Of a stretch of 55,873 nt of DNA, positions 32,551 to 53,847 are shown one piece after another (the first letter of the stretch is position 1; the number at the start of each line of letters is the position of its first letter). Under the pieces are notes generated by a model. It saw only the letters and a list, made by a program, of their open reading frames with translations, was not told where the DNA came from and searched no databases. The DNA is from a virus (lineage: Duplodnaviria > Caudoviricetes). Made by a program: the position numbers and the translations under genes. Location of the stretch: positions 1 through 55,873 of the IMG/VR virus record IMGVR_UViG_3300028809_000018; one strand, given 5' to 3'.

Positions 32551-34350
32551 ATGGCGGCTAATGTCCTGGGTCGGGCGTACATCGAGGTGCACGCCGACAC
32601 CAAGGCATTCGGACGCGAGCTTCTCCGCGAAACCCAGGCCATCGCCACCCTGGCCGAACGCGAGTCGGGCAACGCGGGCGAGCGGATCGGCAAGGGCCTC
32701 TCCGACGGCATCCAGCGCGAGACGCGACGGGCCGCCCCGAAGGTGGCTGGGACGCTGTACCGGGCGATCGGGCGCGACCTGTTCCGGGTGGGTCGCGGCG
32801 GGCGCCTGCTGCCCCAGCTTCAGGGCGTCCTAGTCGCGGAAGCCATCCAGGTCGGCGGGAAGGTCGGCAAGTCGTTCGCCGGCTCCTTCGCGTCCGGCGC
32901 CATCGACGGCTTCCAGGCGATCTTCAAGACGCTCGGCAACTTCGTCAGCTCGATTGGCTCCTCGGTCGGAAACGTGGGCTCGGGTGGCCCGTTCGCCGCC
33001 ATCCTGGGTGGTCTGATCCTGACCGGCATCCCGGCGATCATCGGCGCGATCATCGCCCTGGCGTCCGCGCTGTCGGGCCTGCTCAACGTCATCTACCTCG
33101 TGCCGGGCGCCCTGTCGGCGATCCTGGCCGCGATCATCCCGCTAGTTGTTGCCTTTCAGGGGTTTGGCGAAGCTATCGGTGCGCTCGCGTCCGGGGATGC
33201 GAAGAAGCTCAACGAAGCCCTCAAGAATCTCACCCCTTCCGCGCGAGCCGTGGTCCGCGACCTCCAGCCGTTGGTGAAGGTTTTCAGGGATATCCGGCGC
33301 TTCGCGCAGGAGGCATTCTTCAAGCCCCTCGTTGGCGTGTTCAAGGAGCTGAAGCCGTTCTTCAGCAACACAATCGCGGGCGGCTTCATGCAGGTGGCCG
33401 CCTCCGCGGGCGAATTCACCAAGCAGCTACTCATGCTTGCCCGCGACCCCGTTGTGACCATGTTCTTCGCCCAGACCTTCGAATTCGCGGCCAGCCTGTT
33501 CCGCACGCTCGGGCCGCCGGTTCTGGCGCTGATCAAGGCGCTGGCAACCCTTTCGCTCGCCACCTTCCCGACCCTCGACAAGCTCGCCAAGGGCTTCGGC
33601 AACATGCTGTTGAAGTTCGGCGCCTGGGTCGACAAGACAGTCAAGAATGGCGACTTCGAAGGCTTCATGGACAAGATGCTCCTCGCCTTCGACAACCTGG
33701 GGCGCCTCATCGATTCAGGCTGGGAGTTCATCAAGTCCCTGATCGGTGGCCCCCAGGAGCAGAAGGAGGCGCAGGACTTCTTCGACCAGCTCATCGATGC
33801 CATCGACTCCCTGACGGCGTTCTTCAAGTCGCCCGACGGAAAGGTCGCCCTCCAGGGAATGATCGACCTCGCGAAGATCTTCTTGACTGGCCTGCTCGCG
33901 ATCCTGGTCGGCGCACTGTCCATTGTGGGCGCCTTCGAGGCGATGGCCCAAGCGTTGCGCGAAGTCCTGCGCCTGCTCGGACTCGTGTCGAGCAACACGA
34001 ACCACATCGTGGCGTTGACCCCGGCACAGCTCAACCTGAACCGCGGCCAGCAGACCCTCGGGTCCGCGCCCGGTCACGCTGACGGCGGCGATTTCAACCG
34101 CGAACACCTCGCCTGGTTCGCGGAGGGCAACAAGCGCGAGTTGGTGCTGCCCATGACCAACCCGCAGCGGGTCCGGGAGATCGCCAGCCAGTCCGGCCTG
34201 ACGTCCATGCTGAACCAGGACATGACCGTCAACGTCTACGTCGGCGATGAGCAGGTGACCGCCCGCGTCGAGAAGGTTGCCAACGCGGCGTTCAAGCAGT
34301 TCGGTCGGTCCTACAAGTTCGGTCCGCGCTTCGTCGGAGTGGGTGGCTGA
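32551..34350 (+). CDS. Tape measure protein (short, ~600 aa)
   Basis: GRAYIEV.ADT N-terminus, Ala/Gly-rich amphipathic helices, L..L.PSAR, C-terminal HADGG...AE...E..LP. Confidence 0.85.
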   Translation: MAANVLGRAYIEVHADTKAFGRELLRETQAIATLAERESGNAGERIGKGLSDGIQRETRRAAPKVAGTLYRAIGRDLFRVGRGGRLLPQLQGVLVAEAIQVGGKVGKSFAGSFASGAIDGFQAIFKTLGNFVSSIGSSVGNVGSGGPFAAILGGLILTGIPAIIGAIIALASALSGLLNVIYLVPGALSAILAAIIPLVVAFQGFGEAIGALASGDAKKLNEALKNLTPSARAVVRDLQPLVKVFRDIRRFAQEAFFKPLVGVFKELKPFFSNTIAGGFMQVAASAGEFTKQLLMLARDPVVTMFFAQTFEFAASLFRTLGPPVLALIKALATLSLATFPTLDKLAKGFGNMLLKFGAWVDKTVKNGDFEGFMDKMLLAFDNLGRLIDSGWEFIKSLIGGPQEQKEAQDFFDQLIDAIDSLTAFFKSPDGKVALQGMIDLAKIFLTGLLAILVGALSIVGAFEAMAQALREVLRLLGLVSSNTNHIVALTPAQLNLNRGQQTLGSAPGHADGGDFNREHLAWFAEGNKRELVLPMTNPQRVREIASQSGLTSMLNQDMTVNVYVGDEQVTARVEKVANAAFKQFGRSYKFGPRFVGVGG

Positions 34351-48067: not shown

Positions 48068-48649
48068 TCACGTGGGGGCACCGTCCACATTGGAAGTACC
48101 AGCGCCCGCCGAACTTGTAGACACGGTGCTTCCGAACCCGTTCAGGCGCAGGAGCTGGACCATGTCGCTCAGAAACATGAAGCTGTGCCACTCGCCCGCC
48201 TCCTTCTTCTTGCCGGGCGGGCAGAACAGGACCCGAGAGCCCAGCTCAGCCCGCAAGATCAACAGGATGTCGCCCTTGCGGGGCGCGTGATGGACCGGCG
48301 GCAGGTCCGTGAAGCCGGCGATCTCGCGGAAGTACGTCACCGCGACCCACTGCTCCACCGTGCGCCGTCCACGCCCCCGCGGCTTCACCACAACCACGCC
48401 GATGCTGGCCTTTGCGTTGGCCTTCTCGACCTCCACCTCGCGCAAATAGCCCGAGTAGTTGATGGTGCCGTGGTCGCCGGAGGTCGACTTGACCTCCCAG
48501 CACACGCCCGGCGTCCCCGTGATGTCGCCCTTGTCGAGCGCGCCCTGAAGCGAGCGCCGCTCGGCGTAGGGCCACCCGTTTTCGACAAGAAAGGCCGCGA
48601 CCGCTGACTCAGCAGCGGTCCCGGCCCTCTTCGGCTTGTTGACCATCAC
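48068..48649 (-). CDS. Holliday junction resolvase (PD-(D/E)XK type)
   Basis: KRAGT.AE, AERR...G..D.GDI.G, WEVK. Confidence 0.82.
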   Translation of the reverse strand: MMVNKPKRAGTAAESAVAAFLVENGWPYAERRSLQGALDKGDITGTPGVCWEVKSTSGDHGTINYSGYLREVEVEKANAKASIGVVVVKPRGRGRRTVEQWVAVTYFREIAGFTDLPPVHHAPRKGDILLILRAELGSRVLFCPPGKKKEAGEWHSFMFLSDMVQLLRLNGFGSTVSTSSAGAGTSNVDGAPT

Positions 48650-49038
48650 ACCCGCTTGAATTGGCGGACCTGGTATTCGGCGTACAGCGCCGGGTTGTCC
48701 CGCTTGAGCCGCTCGGCGTTCAGCTCATCGACCACCTTGGGCTCGATGTACTGCTGCGCGAGGTTGGGGCGGTCCTTGATGAAGTCCTTGGTGCGCAGGC
48801 GGTTGATGCGGTGCCAGGTATAGACCGGGCGGCCGGCGAACGTCGCTTCGTCCGCGTCGGCGGCCTTCAGCACGTCCTGGAGCTTGCCGCGGATCTCGGC
48901 GAGCTGCTTCTCCCACTCCTTGATGGTGTCGGCGAGAAACTCCTCCTGCTTCACCAGATCGGCGTACAGGTCCAAGCTCACCGACTTGGGCTCAGGGATC
49001 GCGATGTCAGTTGTGGTCGACGGTGCGATGTCGGTCAT
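48646..49038 (-). CDS. Hypothetical coiled-coil protein
   Basis: RBS GGAGGAG; ends LYAEY..R.F. Confidence 0.72.
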   Translation of the reverse strand: MTDIAPSTTTDIAIPEPKSVSLDLYADLVKQEEFLADTIKEWEKQLAEIRGKLQDVLKAADADEATFAGRPVYTWHRINRLRTKDFIKDRPNLAQQYIEPKVVDELNAERLKRDNPALYAEYQVRQFKRV

Positions 49039-49273
49039 TCTGCTCCTCCAGATCAAACAGCGGCTGGTCGTCCGGCATGGGCGCGGACTTGGCCAGGCGC
49101 GGGCGTGGTGTCTTGATGCACTCGGGACACAGGGTGGCGTTCTCCCGGAAAGCCTCCTCCTCCAGGATGTGCCATCCCCGCGCCCGCGCTCCCTGCAACG
49201 TGAGGGGCTTAGACCCGCGGCTGCTGTAGCTGGCCCCGCAGCCGCACAGGAGCCCCTCAAACGAATCCCACAT
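49007..49273 (-). CDS. Zn-ribbon protein
   Basis: LCGCG...ARARGWH...LCPEC. Confidence 0.68.
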   Translation of the reverse strand: MWDSFEGLLCGCGASYSSRGSKPLTLQGARARGWHILEEEAFRENATLCPECIKTPRPRLAKSAPMPDDQPLFDLEEQNDRHRTVDHN

Positions 49274-49281
49274 GGGCTACA

Positions 49282-49581
49282 TCATGCCGCGTAGTGGCGT
49301 GGCTTGTGGCGCGACAATGCGAGTCGGTGCTCCTGCGGGTACCGCCAGGCGCGCGCGAGCAGGCGCAGCGCCCCCGCGGGTGCTTCCATTAGCAACATTT
49401 GAACCTTCAACATCCAGATTCCCTCCTCCCCCGTTCGCATCTCCGGGTTGGCTCGACGGTGCAGCGCGCCCACGAGCGTGGGCAGGCCGATGGACAGCAC
49501 GATGATGATGGCGAGTCCCCAAATCACGACTGGTGCGAGCGCTTCGAGCGTCGCGCCGGTACTGCTGGCATCACTGGCCAT
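49282..49581 (-). CDS. Membrane protein
   Basis: MASDASS... with a TM helix; the C-terminal part of ORF 49282-50616, whose upstream part is repeat-array junk. Confidence 0.55.
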   Translation of the reverse strand: MASDASSTGATLEALAPVVIWGLAIIIVLSIGLPTLVGALHRRANPEMRTGEEGIWMLKVQMLLMEAPAGALRLLARAWRYPQEHRLALSRHKPRHYAA

Positions 49582-49600
49582 TGTGGACCAACTTTCGGTT

Positions 49601-50249
49601 TGTCGAACAGATACGGCTTGGCACGGCTTGTCGGGTCGGCCAGACATGGGTCGTCGAGACTGGTGAGGTCCGAGGGGGGTAGTCGGGCTGGGGTGGCGTG
49701 GGATGAAGCTGTGTTGACGCGTCAGAACGGAGCGTAACGAACGGATCTGTGATGTCGGGCATGGTCGGGTCTGGGTAGCAGGGATCAGTCGGGGGGGCCA
49801 GGAGTGGCAGGGTGAGTCGGCGGTAGGCGTGGCGATGCGGCGTCGCGTGATGAGATGTCGGAGCGTGTTGGGGGGAAACGTGTTGTCGGAATGGGTCGGC
49901 GAGAACACGGCTCGGGCTGGCTGGTCGGAGGGATGAGGGATGAGCGGATCAGTCGGCGTGACGTGGTCTGTGCTGGCCCGCAGAGGGTAGTCGGAACAGG
50001 GACGTGCTGCGCGGATCGGGCTCGAATTGTCGGGTTGGCAAGTGCGGGGCGAGTCGGCCAGTCGGATTGAGGCGAGGCGCCGTGGATTGTCGGTATGGGG
50101 CGCCGTGGATTGTCGGACTGGAATGGGTTGTCGGGCGTGAAGGGTGCCGGTCAGGCAAGTCGGGAGTGGAAGGGGAGGGCCGGGGTAGTCGGGTCGAGAT
50201 GAGTCGAGCGGGGAGGGCCAGTCGGCGTGGGGTCGGGTTGACATGTCGA
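49601..50249 (-). repeat. Non-coding pentamer-periodic array A (~22-24 units), candidate guide-RNA array
   Basis: + strand units W-GTCGG-(NNNGR)n-NN, e.g. GTCGG CGTGA CGTGG TCTGT GCTGG CCCGC AGAGG GT A; G-rich and C-poor; no credible ORF. Confidence 0.85.
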
Positions 50250-50251
50250 AG

Positions 50252-50274
50252 GGGGCCAGCCTAAGCCGGCCCCC
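50252..50274 (-). other. RNA hairpin between the RAMP gene stop and array A
   Basis: Minus strand GGGGCCGGC-TTAG-GCTGGCCCC; the G-U wobble favours the minus strand. Confidence 0.6.
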
Positions 50275-50282
50275 GTGACGAA

Positions 50283-51086
50283 TCAGGAAACGCGATCCCA
50301 GCGGGTCACGGTGTAGCGGCCATACGTCTGCGAACGGCTGGCCCCCAGGCCCTGCTGCTCGCCGCCCACCCAGATCTGCGCCCACTGCTTCTCGGTGAAG
50401 TCGTAATCGCTGATCACGGTGAACTTGATGACAGCCCGCTGCACCATCTCCTGGTACTGGATGGCCGAACCGAACCGGGTGTTGACGAAGTGCTGGTTCA
50501 CCTTGTCCGGCGAGGTGACGGGCGAACCGTCCTCGCGCCACAGGTCGAGGTGATCCTCGACCACCATGACGTGCTCGGCCATGAAGTTGAGTAGGCCCTT
50601 GTTTGTCTTGCCCCATCCGCGCCCGTCGAGCCGGCCCGCGGCGACGGCAACGCTGGCTGCCTCCTTCAGCGCCGCCTTGAGCTGGCGGCCCTCGATGTAG
50701 AGCTGGTGGGCGTCCGGCTTCGAGCAGATCGGGCCGTCACCGAGGCAGTCCTTGCAGCGCGTCCGGTAGAACCCGTTGAGGTTCTGGGTGGCGGCCAGCT
50801 CGGCGGTCGCCTCCTCCTTCGTGATGCCGCGCTTTTCGACGATCTCCAGCACCGCGCGCTGGATTTGCTGCTCCTTGTCGATGCCGAGCTTGGTGCGCAG
50901 CCAACCCTCGACCACGCGCGGGTCGGAGGGCACGCCGCCGAGGATCTGCTTGAGGAACAGCTCACCTTCGAATCGGTGCGACCACGCCTCGGCCGCCTCG
51001 CTGGCGAACACGGACGGGCGCGGGGGGAGGATTTCGTGCAGGCTGACGCCCGCGAGGTCGGGTGTGATGACGTCGGTCTTGGGCAT
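50283..51086 (-). CDS. Solitary RAMP / Cas7-like RNA-binding protein
   Basis: LYIEGRQLKAALKEAA (RAMP helix-1 motif), C-terminal G-rich loop GLGASRSQTYGRYTV, CxxC...C...H insertion; strong RBS AAAGGAGAGAAG. Confidence 0.8.
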   Translation of the reverse strand: MPKTDVITPDLAGVSLHEILPPRPSVFASEAAEAWSHRFEGELFLKQILGGVPSDPRVVEGWLRTKLGIDKEQQIQRAVLEIVEKRGITKEEATAELAATQNLNGFYRTRCKDCLGDGPICSKPDAHQLYIEGRQLKAALKEAASVAVAAGRLDGRGWGKTNKGLLNFMAEHVMVVEDHLDLWREDGSPVTSPDKVNQHFVNTRFGSAIQYQEMVQRAVIKFTVISDYDFTEKQWAQIWVGGEQQGLGASRSQTYGRYTVTRWDRVS

Positions 51087-51106
51087 TGCTTCTCTCCTTT
51101 GTGGAA

Positions 51107-51466
51107 TGTCGGATCAGTGGTGGCCCGATACGGGTTGTCGGTTAGATCGGGATGGGATAGTCGGCGTCGGGTCGAAGTGCAGTGTCGAGGCGGATTGAGC
51201 AGGAGGGACTTGTCGGTGCCGGGCCGCGTGGCGGTGGGTGGGCCAGTCGGGTTGATGTGGGGGGAACTGGCAAGGAACGTCGGATGGGGCTCGACGGGGC
51301 TGGTGGTGCGGTGGGTGGTCAACAGGCAAGGAATGTCAGGGACCGCATAGTCAAGCCGAGCTGAGCAGAGGTGGGTAGGCTGGTCGGTGCCGAGGCGTCC
51401 GGATTAGTCGCTCCGGGCTGAGCGGTGGTGGGTGGCGTTGTCGGAACTGAAGCGCGTCGGCTAGTC
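51107..51466 (-). repeat. Non-coding pentamer-periodic array B (~13 units), candidate guide-RNA array
   Basis: Same grammar, e.g. GTCGG GTTGA TGTGG GGGGA ACTGG CAAGG AA C; GTCGA GGCGG ATTGA GCAGG AGGGA CT T. Confidence 0.85.
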
Positions 51467-51751
51467 GTTCTTGATGGCGCTGAAGTACTTCTCCATCCAC
51501 TCGCGGATTGCGCGAGCGGCATCTTCGGGCGTGGACCCGCGGGTGGAGCCCTCCGCGGACAGCATTCGCGCCACACCCGTCTCGTCGAAGGCCCGGATGA
51601 GGCCCGTGAGCGCGTCCAAGCGGATGAGCCGGAGGCGCTCCTCGGTGAGCAGGAGCCGATCGCGGTCCAACGTCTCCACAAGGGACATGCCGTGGTGGCG
51701 TGCCTTCAATGTGGAGGCGTTGAAACGCGAATAGGTGTCGAGGTCGATCAC
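51461..51751 (-). CDS. Hypothetical helical protein immediately upstream of array B
   Basis: GTGA coupling; 96 aa; its stop codon abuts the array. Confidence 0.72.
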   Translation of the reverse strand: MIDLDTYSRFNASTLKARHHGMSLVETLDRDRLLLTEERLRLIRLDALTGLIRAFDETGVARMLSAEGSTRGSTPEDAARAIREWMEKYFSAIKND

Positions 51752-52221
51752 GTGAACTTGATGCCCGTCTCGCGGGTGATGATCTCTTTGAAACGGTCGA
51801 AGTCTTCGACGTAATCGTCCGCCTCATCGCTCCAGACCGAGCCGGCGAGGTGATGGAAGAGCGCCTCGGCTTGCTTCTTGTTCAGCCCGAGCAGCTCCCT
51901 GGCCATGTCCGAGTACGGGTAGTACCACTTCTCGTTGCCGTCGAGGTCCACGCTGATCACGTACGGATTGCCCATCGACCACGCCCGTCCGGTTCCCTCG
52001 CGCTCGTCCTGCGCCCGCATCTCGCGGATCTTCTGGCGCCCGGCCGCGGTCGGCTTGCCCGACCCGTCAACCAGATCGGACATGAACACGGCCCAGCCGG
52101 CGAAACAGAACCGGGTGTTGCAGTTGTGCTGCACCCAGTCTTTCTGGCTCCAGTGCTGGGGCGTGTCTTCGATCTGCGCGACGATGAGCCGGATCAGCTC
52201 CTCGTTGAGTGCCGTCTTCAT
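51748..52221 (-). CDS. CFAGWA-motif hypothetical protein (paralog 1)
   Basis: W.Q..W...C.T.FCFAGWA...A..LLG....A..LF. Confidence 0.78.
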   Translation of the reverse strand: MKTALNEELIRLIVAQIEDTPQHWSQKDWVQHNCNTRFCFAGWAVFMSDLVDGSGKPTAAGRQKIREMRAQDEREGTGRAWSMGNPYVISVDLDGNEKWYYPYSDMARELLGLNKKQAEALFHHLAGSVWSDEADDYVEDFDRFKEIITRETGIKFT

Positions 52222-52856
52222 GACTGGGCCACCTTCATCATCCGGTCCATGTAGTCGGCGTTGATGAGCTGTGAGGTCTGCACCCGGCCGTCGCCACCGT
52301 GGGTGAGCTTCTCGTGCTCCGCCCAGTAGACGATCAGCGAGTCGTGATCGTCCGCGGTGCCGCCGACCTCCTGGATGGGGCCGCAGTCAGAGCAGTTGAG
52401 CGTCCACGCGATCGTCTGCATCCCCCGCGTCTTGACGTCGAGCTTGCCGTCAGGGAATGACAGGCCGGTCATGCGCTTCAGATGCCGCTTGTACGAGTCC
52501 CAGGTGCCGTCGCCGACCCAGCCGGAGAACAGGACGCTGGCCTGATCCCCGGTGAAGCCGAGCAGGTCTTCCGCGACCTCGCTCCACGGGAACGCGTCGT
52601 CGGTTTCGTCGGCGATGTTGACGATGTCCAGCCCCTCCGGCGCGACGTTGGCGGCGTGCTGGATGGCGACGATGTTGGGGCGCCCCTTCTCGTCCAGGTA
52701 ATCGGACAGGTGTAGCGCCCAGCCGGCGAAACAGAACTGGGTGGGGCACGAGTCGCCCCCCTTGCGGGACCACACCTCCTGATCCCACTGGCCGGGGCTC
52801 ATCTCGATCGCCTCGACGATCTGGCGGATGAGCGGGACATTCAGTTCTTCGGCCAT
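52218..52856 (-). CDS. CFAGWA-motif hypothetical protein (paralog 2, with a C-terminal CxxC)
   Basis: Same motif; RBS GGGAGAGAAGG. Confidence 0.78.
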   Translation of the reverse strand: MAEELNVPLIRQIVEAIEMSPGQWDQEVWSRKGGDSCPTQFCFAGWALHLSDYLDEKGRPNIVAIQHAANVAPEGLDIVNIADETDDAFPWSEVAEDLLGFTGDQASVLFSGWVGDGTWDSYKRHLKRMTGLSFPDGKLDVKTRGMQTIAWTLNCSDCGPIQEVGGTADDHDSLIVYWAEHEKLTHGGDGRVQTSQLINADYMDRMMKVAQS

Positions 52857-52990
52857 TCCTTCTCTCCCATCGGTCAGCAGAAAGGGGCCGCGCCTCAAGG
52901 GCAGCGGCCCCCCTCGCTCGTGGTGCCACTTGGCGCGGACCCAATCGAGTCAGGATTGTTGCCGGGCTGCGCGGTGGCTCTTACGGGCAA

Positions 52991-53019
52991 ACAGTAGGTG
53001 GATATGCGGGTGTCGTCAA
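52991..53019 (-). promoter_or_regulatory. Leftward promoter TTGACG-N17-TACTGT with an ATATGCGGGT operator in the spacer
   Basis: -35 at 53014-53019, -10 at 52991-52996; drives the operon containing the RAMP gene and arrays. Confidence 0.78.
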
Positions 53020-53023
53020 GACC

Positions 53024-53365
53024 TTAGACGACATCGGCCTCAAGTTCTTCTTCACGGGCCTTTCCGCGCACGAGAAGCCGAGCGATGGTCTGACTCGTCT
53101 GGCCGCTGGCAGCGGCGATCTGGGCCGGCTTCATGGTGATCCTGGCGTCGCGGGCCGCGGCCTTGCGGGTGTCCGCGGCCAGACCCATCAGTTGGTCCCG
53201 CATGAGGTTGATGAGGTCCCCGCCCACCCGGATCTGATCGACCGGGTCGAGGCCCTCCAGGGCGTTGATGAGGCAGGCGCGCAGTTGAGCCTGCTCGGGT
53301 GTGTCACCTCCGTGATCGCGCACCCATTTGGCGGTGGGGGCGCATATCGCGCTGACGTCGATCAT
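53024..53365 (-). CDS. HTH DNA-binding protein (candidate repressor)
   Basis: C-terminal MKPAQIAAASGQTSQTIARLL helix-turn-helix; RBS AGGAGAAG. Confidence 0.72.
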   Translation of the reverse strand: MIDVSAICAPTAKWVRDHGGDTPEQAQLRACLINALEGLDPVDQIRVGGDLINLMRDQLMGLAADTRKAAARDARITMKPAQIAAASGQTSQTIARLLVRGKAREEELEADVV

Positions 53366-53395
53366 GTCTTCTCCTGTGCTGGTGGCGGATGCACA

Positions 53396-53425
53396 GCACG
53401 CTACCCGAATATCCGGGTAGCGTGC
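53396..53425. promoter_or_regulatory. Palindromic operator GCACGCTACCCG-AATATC-CGGGTAGCGTGC
   Basis: Perfect 12-bp arms; contains ATATNCGGGT on both strands; directly upstream of the HTH gene. Confidence 0.8.
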
Positions 53426-53445
53426 GTGACCTGCGCGTATGTGCC

Positions 53446-53847
53446 TCAGAGCTGTCGTTCGATCAACACAGCGAGCCGACCGAACGGGATCTGGTAGCGA
53501 TCGTTGAGGAGGGTGAGGGAGAACTTCTCCGAAAGCTCGCCCGGCTCGTGCTGGGCCTTGATCTCGGGGTTGATGGACAGCAGGCCCGCCCACTTGCGTA
53601 CCGCGTGGGGCAGGGTGCACGCAGACGAGTCGGCGGGGTTGTCGACGGCTACGTAACCGGTGACGCCCGCGGTCGGGTAGGGCGAGCGTTTGACGATGCC
53701 CTGCTCGGCGCCCAACTCGGTCAGCACACCAAGGCAGCAGAACACCTGAAGTCCTGAATCCTCAACGCGATTGAGGTACGCCCGCCCCTGCGGGAACTTG
53801 CCCGACATGAGCCGGCGCACCCACTCATCGCGTATGTGCGGATTCAC
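53446..53847 (-). CDS. CCLGVL-motif protein (tandem paralog 5)
   Basis: WV..L.SG...QG...CCLGVL...W.GL...LND...F. Confidence 0.82.
   Translation of the reverse strand: MNPHIRDEWVRRLMSGKFPQGRAYLNRVEDSGLQVFCCLGVLTELGAEQGIVKRSPYPTAGVTGYVAVDNPADSSACTLPHAVRKWAGLLSINPEIKAQHEPGELSEKFSLTLLNDRYQIPFGRLAVLIERQL

What the first reader, a model, noticed from the sequence alone, without database searches (positions are those of the whole stretch)
49601..50249. Grammar of array A: delimiter plus variable-length pentamer runs, with a recent unit duplication
Seen on the + strand: GTCGA ACAGA TACGG CTTGG CACGG CT|T; GTCGG GGGGG CCAGG AGTGG CAGGG TG|A; GTCGG AGCGT GTTGG GGGGA AACGT GT|T; GTCGG AGGGA TGAGG GATGA GCGGA TC|A; GTCGG ATTGA GGCGA GGCGC CGTGG AT|T; GTCGG TATGG GGCGC CGTGG AT|T. 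Units are mostly ~18-40 nt and change in steps of 5, sometimes with one extra base after the delimiter. An 18-nt exact duplicate (GGCGCCGTGGATTGTCGG, 50076-50093 and 50099-50116) suggests growth by slippage or duplication followed by diversification, not Cas1-Cas2 acquisition. Keeping the register while the variable positions diverge implies selection (inference).
Basis: seen in the sequence. Interest (0 to 1): 0.8.

Follow-up and report, generated by a model that had tools for sequence, protein, structure and literature searches.

The report
Phage VIPR guide-RNA array, C-anchored
This odd repeat stretch is most likely an array of short guide RNAs for a lone Cas7-like protein encoded next to it, a phage "VIPR" system of the kind first described in 2026, here in a variant that uses C instead of G-G-pyrimidine as its fixed letters.

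Summary
GTCGG occurs 23 times in 49601-50249, all on one strand, against 6.1±2.2 in shuffles. G recurs at lag 5 (0.247; 0 of 1000 shuffles reach it). Unit lengths are 5n+3 or 5n+4 in 25 of 26 window units. The 18-nt duplicate is exact.

On the minus strand each unit starts with (C/T)CGAC, then NNNNC pentamers. The gene between arrays A and B (50283-51086, minus) folds as a Cas7/Csm3-like RAMP. Of 62 viral loci with a homologue, most carry the same C-rich arrays.

This matches the VIPR systems of 2026 preprints: a lone RAMP, 5-nt repeats, two letters read, one target letter skipped. I confirmed that code in sister loci: two guides match vipr codons perfectly in 12 and 17 other loci. Differences from published type II are yYC instead of GGY, short tail-less units, and no helper gene.

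A near-identical phage in another soil sample differs by register-keeping unit-sized changes, which supports growth without Cas1. The transcribed strand and the window's targets are inferred. This scan had already noted the same kind in at least 6 other genomes.

The parts
49602..50249 (-). Array A: 28 (C/T)CGAC delimiters (23 CCGAC, 5 TCGAC) plus CTGAC variants at 49725 and 50154. Units are mostly 18-41 nt of NNNNC pentamers with a 3-4 nt remainder. Candidate vrRNA guide array.
50283..51086 (-). vipr-like gene, 267 aa. Lone Cas7/Csm3-like RAMP with G-rich loop GLGASRSQTYGRY. No Pfam or PHROG hit.
51108..51460 (-). Array B: same grammar. It fills the space between the stop of the 96-aa gene and the vipr ribosome-binding region.
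50253..50276 (-). G+C-rich hairpin (GGGGGCC...GGCCCCC) between the vipr stop codon and the first unit of array A. No U-tract. Function unknown.
   Evidence: read; only a sub-threshold Rfam hit there; no terminator called
50076..50116 (-). Two adjacent units (23 and 28 nt) sharing an exact 18-nt stretch. Their read letters are AA AC GC AT and AA AC GC GC AA, so they are a duplicated and then diverged guide.
50164..50249 (-). Polymorphic, vipr-proximal end of array A. Unit-sized gain or loss and a replacement are seen in other soil runs.
   Evidence: tables 4, 5, 5c, 8
49995..50033 (-). 39-nt unit, read letters AA GA CG CG AG GT TG. The reverse complement spells H-T-L-R-R-S-F. It matches box II of a tyrosine integrase of a 43-kb phage at 14 of 14 letters.
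49658..49686 (-). 29-nt unit, read letters TA CC GG TC AG. It matches 9 of 10 letters, in frame, 8 nt upstream of the site above in the same integrase gene.
51461..51751 (-). 96-aa gene directly upstream of array B. No family hit and not related to the helper gene of sister loci. Role unknown.
49282..49581 (-). 99-aa gene directly downstream of array A, with a hydrophobic stretch. No family hit and not conserved in sister loci.

Best explanation
Array A, with array B, is a head-to-tail array of short guide RNAs (vrRNA-like units) for the lone Cas7-like protein encoded between the two arrays. It is a divergent VIPR system of a soil actinophage-like siphovirus.

Shown here:
- The grammar is 5'-(C/T)CGAC [NN yYC]n NN n(n)-3' on the minus strand.
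- The protein has a RAMP fold.
- Array and protein go together in dozens of diverged viral loci.
- In two guides of sister loci, the two letters after each fixed C match target DNA with every third target letter skipped.

Inferred:
- The arrays are transcribed with the operon on the minus strand.
- The transcript is cut at or near the delimiters.
- One protein copy binds each pentamer, holding y-Y-C (C in the pyrimidine pocket that holds Y3 of GGY in the published structure) and presenting NN.
- The filament binds double-stranded DNA of rival mobile elements and blocks their transcription.

This explains the 5-nt steps: a unit can only grow or shrink by whole protein footprints. New units arise by duplication and unequal recombination between delimiters, followed by change at the read letters. 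No Cas1-Cas2 is involved. At least two window units may aim at the tyrosine integrase of a 43-kb temperate-type phage.
For: Grammar and statistics.

Protein: AlphaFold model has pLDDT 76 and pTM 0.70. The listed Foldseek PDB rows are CRISPR effector complexes (types III-A, III-D, IV and VII), E from 1.3e-5 and probability 0.87-1.0. An independent VIA search gives Z 9.9-8.1 for Csm3, Cmr4, Csf2 and gRAMP, and the top 21 rows are all CRISPR RAMPs.

Association: 62 viral loci carry a homologue at 34-56% identity. Most have a C-rich stretch where CCGAC is the commonest 5-mer, up to 2.3 kb with 70 copies, on the gene's strand. Pooled spacings peak at 8/9, 13, 18, 23/24, 28/29, 33/34, 38/39, 43 and 48.

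Code: of 264 long units, the reading v0v1 with a 1-nt skip gives 2 guides with perfect hits in 3 or more other loci (12 and 17 loci). These fall on the vipr codons for VAEGWLK and QGFGRY, and variation sits only at the skipped wobble letters. Shuffled guides give 0. The frames v1v2 and v2c3 do not exceed their shuffles.

Strand:
- In phage SUSP1 the GGYNN repeats lie on the vipr strand.
- In 36 of the 40 sister loci that carry the helper gene, the first delimiter lies within 88 nt of the helper gene's stop and the last within 109 nt of vipr, so the array fills the gap between two co-directional genes.
- No promoter-like site was found on either strand of 48800-53600.
- The sense RNA is poorly structured (-119.8 kcal/mol, z +1.69). 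The G strand gives -250.8.
- The third fixed letter is C on the sense strand, which fits the published pyrimidine-only pocket. In a weak alignment the G1 and G2 readers D177 and W178 of SUSP1 Vipr are A and S here, while R179 is kept (paper section read).

Turnover. No Cas1. No self-targets for units with 5 or more read pairs, except one 10-of-10 hit at chance level.

Published model: bioRxiv 10.64898/2026.04.26.720920 (Results and type-classification section read) and 10.64898/2026.04.26.720927 (sections 5 and 6).
Against: - No RNA data. No run on record as RNA holds the locus, so strand, processing sites and expression are all inferred.
- Sequence relation to a published Vipr is not significant (hhalign E 0.21, probability 0.3%). 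Membership rests on fold, context and code.
- The fixed GGY of the published systems is absent.
- There is no structured 3' tail.
- No vap-like helper is recognisable in this genome, although 40 of 62 relatives have one.
- Most window units carry only 4-5 read pairs (8-10 nt), too few for unique targeting in a genome.
- None of the window's units hit the 59 sister loci above shuffled controls.
- The IMG/VR scan with the longest unit returned at least 118 stretches. In the 80 examined loci they were mostly unrelated genes, with a frame bias explained by codon usage. The integrase match was therefore picked out of noise. Only the second, adjacent in-frame 9-of-10 match gives it independent weight, at roughly p 0.01-0.03 by my own estimate.
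- The code test gave only 2 multi-locus guides of 264. One of them (L045) also matches its own vipr perfectly, which fits autoregulation as well as warfare.
Confidence: 0.75

Rival explanations
1. Same VIPR system, but the guides are transcribed from the + (G-rich) strand, antisense to the operon. Pentamers would be G-R-n/NN, the 'NNNGG'-type repeats named in the discovery preprint, with GTCGG as a minimal 3' tail.
For: - The discovery preprint lists alternative repeats NNNGG, YNNNG and NNNNG (section 20). On the + strand the array reads G-g-N-N-N.
- The invariant part would then sit 3' of the repeats, as in published vrRNAs.
- G1 would stay invariant.
- The same two letters (v0v1) are read under either strand, so the target matches do not discriminate (my reasoning).
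Against: - It would need an outward promoter at the 5' end of vipr and of the downstream gene in every locus. None was found here.
- In 36 of 40 helper-bearing loci the first delimiter lies within 88 nt of the helper stop and the last within 109 nt of vipr, so the array fills the gap between co-directional genes.
- SUSP1 repeats are on the vipr strand.
- The third fixed position would be purine-biased: its complement v2 is about 65% pyrimidine. The published pocket excludes purines.
- The G strand folds strongly, at -250.8 kcal/mol for 649 nt.
Confidence: 0.13
2. The arrays are not guides but a protein-coated leader and trailer. The RAMP protein polymerises on its own operon RNA, for autoregulation, RNA protection, or as a decoy for host type III/IV CRISPR proteins, and targets no DNA.
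For: - Array B occupies the whole 5' leader of the RAMP gene.
- The window's units are short, and none has a significant target in the sister loci.
- One sister guide matches its own vipr.
Against: - The read letters have near-uniform composition and each phage's repertoire is its own. Only 1 window unit has even a 4-of-5 match to a unit in the 62 loci. That is not expected for a mere binding track.
- Two sister guides match coding DNA of 12 and 17 other loci with mismatches only at wobble letters.
- Published VIPR proteins with the same layout repress DNA targets.
Confidence: 0.07
3. DNA-level element: iterons of a replication origin or a centromere-like array bound by a double-strand DNA-binding protein at GTCGG sites. 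Alternatively, a C-rich Rho-loading region.
For: - Same-orientation direct repeats.
- Strong strand skew (GC skew +0.36 to +0.45).
- Recombination-type genes nearby: RusA-like and RecE-like PHROG hits.
Against: - One invariant base every 5 nt, with the register reset at each delimiter, is not how iterons or rut sites are built.
- The arrays always travel with the RAMP gene across loci that share no other neighbour.
- The gapped matches to coding DNA.
Confidence: 0.03
4. Protein-coding: the 444-aa minus-strand ORF 49282-50616 that runs through array A encodes a proline-rich protein.
For: One frame is open across the whole array.
Against: - 127 of 1000 dinucleotide shuffles also have an open frame.
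- 5 of 6 long sister arrays have stops in all three frames.
- The periodicity is 5, not 3: lag-3 autocorrelation is -0.08.
- Population variants differ by 28 nt and by a net 34 nt.
Confidence: 0.01

Closest known systems
VIPR systems, best studied as type II of Escherichia phage SUSP1 (Vipr + Vap1 + four vrRNAs). Sources: bioRxiv 10.64898/2026.04.26.720920 and 10.64898/2026.04.26.720927.
   Same: - Phage-borne lone RAMP protein flanked by long non-coding stretches.
- 5-nt repeat made of three fixed letters plus two variable letters.
- The variable pairs match target DNA with one letter skipped, preferentially the codon wobble position.
- Guides aimed at other VIPR genes.
- Arrays on the vipr strand.
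- No Cas1-Cas2.
(paper.)
   Different: - Fixed letters are y-Y-C, with only C near-invariant, instead of G-G-Y.
- Units are 18-41 nt with 3-7 read pairs, instead of about 100-nt RNAs with 9-16 repeats.
- There is no structured tail or pseudoknot, only a (C/T)CGAC delimiter that shifts the register by 3-4 nt.
- About 26 units are packed head to tail inside an operon without their own promoters or terminators. Each SUSP1 vrRNA has these, by my reading of the sequence.
- No vap homologue.
- The protein is 267 aa against 195 aa, and sequence similarity is not significant.
Non-canonical and 'staggered' VIPR arrays. Sources: discovery preprint, section 9 and legend of fig. S18; bioRxiv 10.64898/2026.10.21.760802, passages on GAC/NN, CAC/NN, WGT/NN and TGH/NN.
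   Same: - Period 5 with fixed trinucleotides other than GGY, some ending in C.
[quoted passage not shown]
- A Vipr-like fold next door.

   Different: - The texts I could read do not name a y-Y-C/NN unit or a CCGAC-punctuated array.
- They describe motifs 'repeated 10 times', not runs of 3-8.
- Figures and supplements were not available, so this clade may already be among the seven types.
CRISPR arrays with class 1 Cas7 backbones (types I, III, IV, VII)
   Same: - RAMP fold with a G-rich loop.
- One protein copy per fixed step of guide RNA.
- A conserved handle next to a variable guide.
- An array of many guides.

   Different: - Step of 5, not 6.
- No 23-50-nt repeat.
- No Cas1, and no other RAMP-like or helper homologue found among the neighbouring genes.
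- Guides are non-contiguous.
- New units arise by duplication, not by spacer capture.

Membership tests
VIPR system | Lone RAMP (Cas7-like) protein with RRM core, G-rich loop and thumb | tested here: met
   AF2 model pLDDT 76. Listed Foldseek rows are CRISPR effector complexes of types III-A, III-D, IV and VII, E from 1.3e-5. VIA Z 9.9-8.1 for Csm3, Cmr4, Csf2 and gRAMP. The loop GLGASRSQTYGRY has the GhGxxxxxGhG form (motif recalled from memory).
VIPR system | Sequence homology to a published Vipr (SUSP1, KT454805.2 28474-29061) | tested here: inconclusive
   hhalign of the 28-sequence profile against SUSP1 Vipr gives E 0.21 and probability 0.3%. The alignment is collinear over 121 columns, including helix-1 and the G-loop.
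VIPR system | Long non-coding flanks made of tandem 5-nt repeats | tested here: met
   Lag-5 autocorrelation 0.247, reached by 0 of 1000 shuffles. Fixed C every 5 nt at 82-94%. The same is seen in sister loci.
VIPR system | Fixed trinucleotide GGY (canonical) or a related consensus | tested here: not met
   The canonical GGY is absent. On the vipr strand the fixed letters are y-Y-C. The preprints allow 'a related consensus' and other trinucleotides.
VIPR system | Variable NN pairs specify DNA targets with one skipped letter | tested here: met
   Met for the family: 2 sister-locus guides hit 12 and 17 other loci perfectly, against 0 for shuffles and no excess in other frames. For the window's own units it is only suggestive: 14 of 14 and 9 of 10 on one integrase gene.
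VIPR system | Accessory vap gene next to vipr | tested here: inconclusive
   40 of 62 sister loci have a conserved ~170-aa upstream gene. The window genome has no match to it. Its own neighbours match neither that gene nor SUSP1 vap1. The preprint says loci 'typically' hold two genes.
VIPR system | vrRNAs expressed, processed and bound by Vipr | not testable with these tools
   No RNA holder was listed. See Tried and rejected.
VIPR type II (SUSP1-like) | About 100-nt vrRNA of 9-16 repeats capped by a structured 3' tail or pseudoknot, each with its own promoter | tested here: not met
   Units are 18-41 nt with no tail. No promoter or terminator was called. The sense RNA is less structured than 18 of 20 shuffles. 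No Rfam family matched.
CRISPR-Cas | Array of identical 23-50-nt repeats with unique spacers, plus a Cas1-Cas2 adaptation module | tested here: not met
   TRF finds no such array. The only conserved element is 5 nt. No Cas1 in the complete genome, while the control rings in 9 of 14 genomes.

The most novel reading that the evidence does not exclude
A pyrimidine-anchored VIPR lineage of soil actinophages in which the Vipr protein has given up reading G-G and keeps only the pyrimidine pocket. Guides are one helical turn long (5-7 protomers) and are produced by the dozen from a single operon transcript. Several short guides tile neighbouring sites of a rival's integrase or vipr gene, which makes up for low single-guide specificity. 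The repertoire is renewed within populations by register-keeping unit and pentamer gains and losses at the vipr-proximal end. That would be a Cas1-free, recombination-driven counterpart of spacer turnover.
Probability: 0.35. Interest if true: 0.7.

Novelty: new variant of a known kind. Interest (0 to 1): 0.5.

Why it matters
VIPR was described only in 2026 and has been studied in E. coli and Pseudomonas phages with G-G-pyrimidine repeats. This locus and its roughly 60 relatives suggest three extensions.

- The same protein-per-pentamer logic appears to work with a different fixed code (y-Y-C). That bears on how the protein reads its RNA and on how far the system can be re-engineered.
- Guides as short as 8-14 read letters are kept in large numbers. 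This raises the question of how specificity is reached; tiling of neighbouring sites is one answer.
- Public soil metagenomes catch the array changing by whole units while the neighbouring gene stays constant. That is direct evidence on how a guide repertoire evolves without an acquisition machine.

It also supplies a simple search rule for finding such arrays in high-G+C phages: (C/T)CGAC followed by a C every 5 nt.

Tried and rejected
- Related cultured phages. blastn of 49300-51500 against 50,697 phage records gave no match. tblastn of the 267-aa protein hit only Microcystis phage Mae-JY09, at 31%. Portal relatives are at most 37% identical.
- Single-protein scan of viral contigs: no relative. 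The profile scan worked.
- Profile search of solved structures by sequence: only noise, E above 1.
- RNA evidence: no RNA holder was listed for the locus, so nothing can be said on expression.
- Parts of the stretch had no cover in runs X11 and X12. I draw no conclusion from that.
- Whole-array Fourier transform: no period-5 peak, because the register resets. Autocorrelation was used instead.
- Window units against 59 sister loci: hits equal to shuffled controls.
- Window units against the phage's own genome: none for units with 5 or more pairs, except one 10-of-10 hit at 33151-33164, at chance level.
In the 80 loci examined, 42 hits fell in one frame where the skipped letter is codon position 2. 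The proteins were unrelated, and many of the contigs have far lower G+C than this phage. I read this as codon-usage noise.
- A third window unit (49820) hits the G001 integrase at 9 of 10 but out of frame. I treat it as chance.
- Relatives of that integrase: only 3 loci. One lacks the H.LR motif.
- Helper gene of sister loci against the window's 96-aa and 157-aa proteins and SUSP1 vap1: no relation.
- Rfam: no hammerhead or other family. One sub-threshold hit at the hairpin, E 0.098.
- Promoter and terminator scan: nothing on either strand.
- Ideas considered and dropped: primase recognition sites, AP2/DRE-like CCGAC binding sites, G-quadruplex DNA, Rho rut sites. All were recalled from memory and not tested further once the RAMP fold and the code test came in.
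- Supplements and figures of the preprints were not available. They may already type this clade.
Full report
WHAT IS THERE. The window is a complete 55,873-bp virus record with inverted terminal repeats. It carries a terminase, portal, tape-measure and tail genes of siphovirus type. Its closest portals are those of actinobacterial phages at about 31-37% identity. It comes from soil metagenomes. Genes from about 44.7 kb to the right end lie on the minus strand. Two non-coding stretches, 49602-50249 (array A) and 51108-51460 (array B), flank a 267-aa minus-strand gene at 50283-51086. Both are strongly G-rich on the + strand, with GC skew +0.36 to +0.45.

CHECK OF THE OBSERVATION. GTCGG occurs 23 times in 49601-50249 and its complement never. 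Dinucleotide shuffles give 6.1 +/- 2.2, maximum 14 of 2000. G recurs at lags 5, 10 and 15 (0.247, 0.166, 0.115); 0, 0 and 1 of 1000 shuffles reach these values. Lag 3 is negative. Spacings between delimiters are 3 or 4 mod 5 in 19 of 27 cases, with 28/29 as the mode. With delimiters written [CT][CT]GAC, 25 of 26 units in the two arrays are 5n+3 or 5n+4, and so are 640 of 800 units in related loci. The 18-nt duplicate at 50076-50093 and 50099-50116 is exact.

The register is sharper on the minus strand. After CCGAC, every fifth base is C in 82-94% of 33 sites, and the base before it is often C or T. Each unit reads (C/T)CGAC, then NNNNC pentamers, then 3-4 extra bases. Put another way, a continuous pentamer register is interrupted by an inserted GAC or CGAC.

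THE NEIGHBOUR GENE. The 267-aa protein has no Pfam or PHROG match. It has 895 metagenomic homologues. Its C-terminus carries GLGASRSQTYGRY, which has the form of the RAMP glycine-rich loop (motif recalled from memory). An AlphaFold model built on 28 sequences has pLDDT 76 and pTM 0.70. Foldseek against the PDB lists CRISPR effector complexes of types III-A, III-D, IV and VII, with E from 1.3e-5 and probability 0.87-1.0. A Foldseek-independent search puts Csm3, Cmr4, Csf2, type VII Cas7 and gRAMP at Z 9.9-8.1, and its top 21 rows are all CRISPR RAMPs.

THE ASSOCIATION IS GENERAL. A profile scan of viral contigs returned 62 loci with a homologue at 34-56% identity. Most of them have a C-rich stretch on the gene's own strand, next to the gene, in which CCGAC is the commonest 5-mer. 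The largest is 2.3 kb with 70 copies. A few loci use TCGAC, ACGAC or CTGAC, and a few have no array within the fetched flanks. Pooled spacings peak every 5 nt from 8 to 48. Autocorrelation of C peaks at 5, 10 and 15 in five long sister arrays, whereas the gene itself shows period 3.

WHAT IS KNOWN. A literature search found four 2026 preprints on VIPR systems.
- From the discovery paper I read the Results and the type-classification section. It describes phage-borne lone RAMP proteins (Vipr) flanked by vrRNAs of YNNGG repeats. NN specifies double-stranded DNA with one target letter skipped. Targets are rival phages, satellites and other VIPR systems. There are seven types, 'or a related consensus' (NNNGG, YNNNG, NNNNG), plus staggered and ribozyme-interspersed arrays.
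- From the structure paper I read sections 5 and 6. One protomer binds one pentamer. G1 is read by H17 and D177, and G2 by R138 and W178. Y3 sits in a pocket that excludes purines, with R179.
- A third preprint was seen only as an abstract.
- In a fourth I read passages. It reports non-canonical trinucleotides such as GAC/NN and CAC/NN.
- Earlier notes of this scan describe the same kind of C-anchored array in at least 6 other genomes. I treated these as leads and tested the claims myself.

TEST OF THE CODE. I took 264 units of 38-90 nt from the loci and tried three choices of read pair with a 1-nt skip, each against shuffled pair order.
- Only the pair directly after the fixed C (v0v1) gave guides with perfect hits in many other loci.
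- L014:3923 hits 12 loci at 16 of 16 letters, on the codons for V-A-E-G-W-L-K of vipr, on the antisense strand.
- L045:4709 hits 17 other loci on the codons for Q-G-F-G-R-Y of the G-loop. It also hits its own vipr.
- In both cases the matched sequences vary only at the skipped letters, which are wobble positions.
- No shuffled guide hit 2 or more loci. The frames v1v2 and v2c3 behaved like their shuffles. v2c3 gives many low-complexity C-rich hits in real and shuffled guides alike.
- The first two letters of the 3-4-nt remainder are read. The CC of CCGAC is not.

So the pentamer is [NN][y-Y-C] and CCGAC is [CC][GAC]. Composition agrees: v0 and v1 are near-uniform, v2 is 46% C, c3 is 83% pyrimidine and C4 is 96% C. 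That last figure is inflated by my filter; the unbiased figure is 82-94%. This is two guides out of 264, so the code is supported for the family but thinly.

WHICH STRAND. The target matches cannot tell, because both strand models read the same two letters. Five points favour the minus (C-rich, vipr-sense) strand.
- In SUSP1 (KT454805.2) the GGYNN runs lie on the vipr strand.
- In 36 of the 40 sister loci that carry the helper gene, the first delimiter lies within 88 nt of the helper stop and the last within 109 nt of vipr. The array thus fills the gap between a co-directional upstream gene and vipr. Of the other four, two have no delimiter in the gap and two have looser spacing.
- No promoter-like site lies on either strand of 48800-53600.
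- On the C strand the invariant letter falls at the position of Y3, and R179 is kept. D177 and W178, the readers of G1 and G2, align with A and S. This alignment is statistically weak, E 0.21.
- The C-strand RNA is poorly structured (z +1.69) and the G strand folds at -250.8 kcal/mol.

I put the C strand at about 0.8 given that this is a VIPR system.

ARRAY DYNAMICS. Contigs from four other soil runs were laid on 49300-51600.
- Run X7 holds a near-identical phage. Across 50215-51600 (vipr and array B) it has 1 other letter, and across 49665-50121 it has one (A>G at 50075).
- At the vipr-proximal end of array A it has a 28-nt insertion behind 50236. The first 12 letters of the insertion repeat the 12 that follow the insertion point (window 50237-50248). 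This is the signature of unequal recombination or slippage between delimiter-containing repeats.
- It also replaces 50165-50214 (50 nt) with 16 letters. By my arithmetic this turns 62 nt between the delimiters at 50159 and 50221 into a single 28-nt unit.
- Comparing the letters by eye, the difference looks like one whole 29-nt unit, one 5-nt pentamer and a few substitutions.
- Run X3 carries the window's form at depth 35 and the X7-like form at depth 2.2, so both coexist in one sample.

Change is therefore unit-sized, keeps the register, is concentrated in about 90 nt next to vipr, and is much faster than point change in the gene. The complete genome has no Cas1. The adjacent duplicated units (read letters AA AC GC AT and AA AC GC GC AA) look like a guide copied and then retuned.

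TARGETS OF THIS ARRAY. Targets are unknown for most units. They are short, with 3-7 read pairs. They do not hit the phage's own genome or the sister loci above chance. They are not shared with other loci.

The 39-nt unit at 50033 reads, in reverse complement, H-T-L-R-R-S-F, which resembles box II of tyrosine recombinases (motif recalled from memory). A scan of viral contigs gave at least 118 stretches, mostly noise in the 80 loci examined. One hit lies in frame on the HTLRRSFA motif of a 371-aa integrase-like ORF that also has TGLRISE and RYLG. That ORF belongs to a complete 43-kb phage with direct terminal repeats and 63% G+C, G001. An 87%-identical integrase in G002 matches 13 of 14. A second window unit (49686) matches 9 of 10, in frame, 8 nt upstream (L-D-P-G) in both phages. 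It has only 2 such hits genome-wide. By my estimate the chance of that adjacency is about 0.01-0.03. The window's phage has no tyrosine integrase of its own. I regard integrase targeting as a lead, at about even odds.

WHAT DOES NOT FIT.
- No helper gene. 40 of 62 relatives have a conserved ~170-aa gene upstream of the array. It is absent from this genome and unrelated to SUSP1 vap1.
- No structured tail and no ribozyme.
- Guides are far shorter than the published ones.
- The first read pair is A/T-rich: 69% and 72% in sister loci. This is unexplained and could mark a processing site.
- A sister guide matches its own vipr, whereas the preprint reports no self-targets.

REJECTED READINGS.
- Coding. 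An open frame across array A occurs in 127 of 1000 shuffles. 5 of 6 long sister arrays have stops in all three frames.
- CRISPR. There is no long repeat and no Cas1.
- Iterons or rut sites. Neither explains an invariant base every 5 nt, the fixed partnership with a RAMP gene, or the gapped matches to coding DNA.

VERDICT. The element is best filed as a VIPR-type guide array in a variant form: y-Y-C anchored, short tail-less units, operon-embedded, no recognisable vap. The kind is already in preprints and this scan has met it before, so the interest is moderate. The population-level evidence for register-keeping unit turnover and the strand and residue argument are the new points.

Noticed in passing
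L045:4709-4746 and L045:4658-4674: A guide unit just downstream of a sister phage's vipr matches the G-loop codons (QGFGRY) of its OWN vipr perfectly, as well as those of 17 other loci. This could be autoregulation, or a guide derived from the gene itself. The discovery preprint reports no self-targets.
   Followed up: partly
L014:3923-3967: A sister-locus guide matches the antisense strand of the VAEGWLK codons of vipr in 12 other loci at 16 of 16 letters. Its own vipr differs in the first pair (14 of 16).
   Followed up: partly
L010:2733-3248 and 39 other loci (alignment A2): A conserved ~170-aa gene with no Pfam match lies directly upstream of the array in 40 of 62 sister loci. It is a candidate accessory (vap-like) gene of this clade and is absent from the window's complete genome.
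   Followed up: partly
L046:5597-5871: A run of 55 pentamers ending in C turns out to be a 15-nt tandem repeat (GGGGC GGACC TGTAC-like) about 1 kb downstream of vipr. It may be coding (a five-residue repeat) rather than a guide array.
   Followed up: no
window 50253-50276: A G+C-rich hairpin without a U-tract sits between the vipr stop and array A. Its only Rfam hit is sub-threshold (BjrC68, E 0.098). It could protect the vipr mRNA end after array processing.
   Followed up: no
window 51748-52898: Two adjacent paralogous genes (157 and 226 aa) both match PHROG 889, of unknown function, upstream of the VIPR cassette.
   Followed up: no
window 48068-49038: A RusA-like resolvase (PHROG 244) and a 130-aa protein matching only the C-terminal part of RecE-like exonucleases (PHROG 434) lie downstream of the cassette.
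   Followed up: no
PP395641.1 37725-38456: Microcystis phage Mae-JY09 encodes the only homologue of the 267-aa protein among 50,697 deposited phage records (31% identity over 91%). It is annotated as hypothetical. I did not check whether it has a pentamer array.
   Followed up: no
first pentamer after each delimiter, window arrays and 58 loci: The first read pair of a unit is A/T-rich (v0 69% and v1 72% A or T in sister loci), unlike later pairs. This is unexplained and may mark a processing or nucleation site.
   Followed up: no
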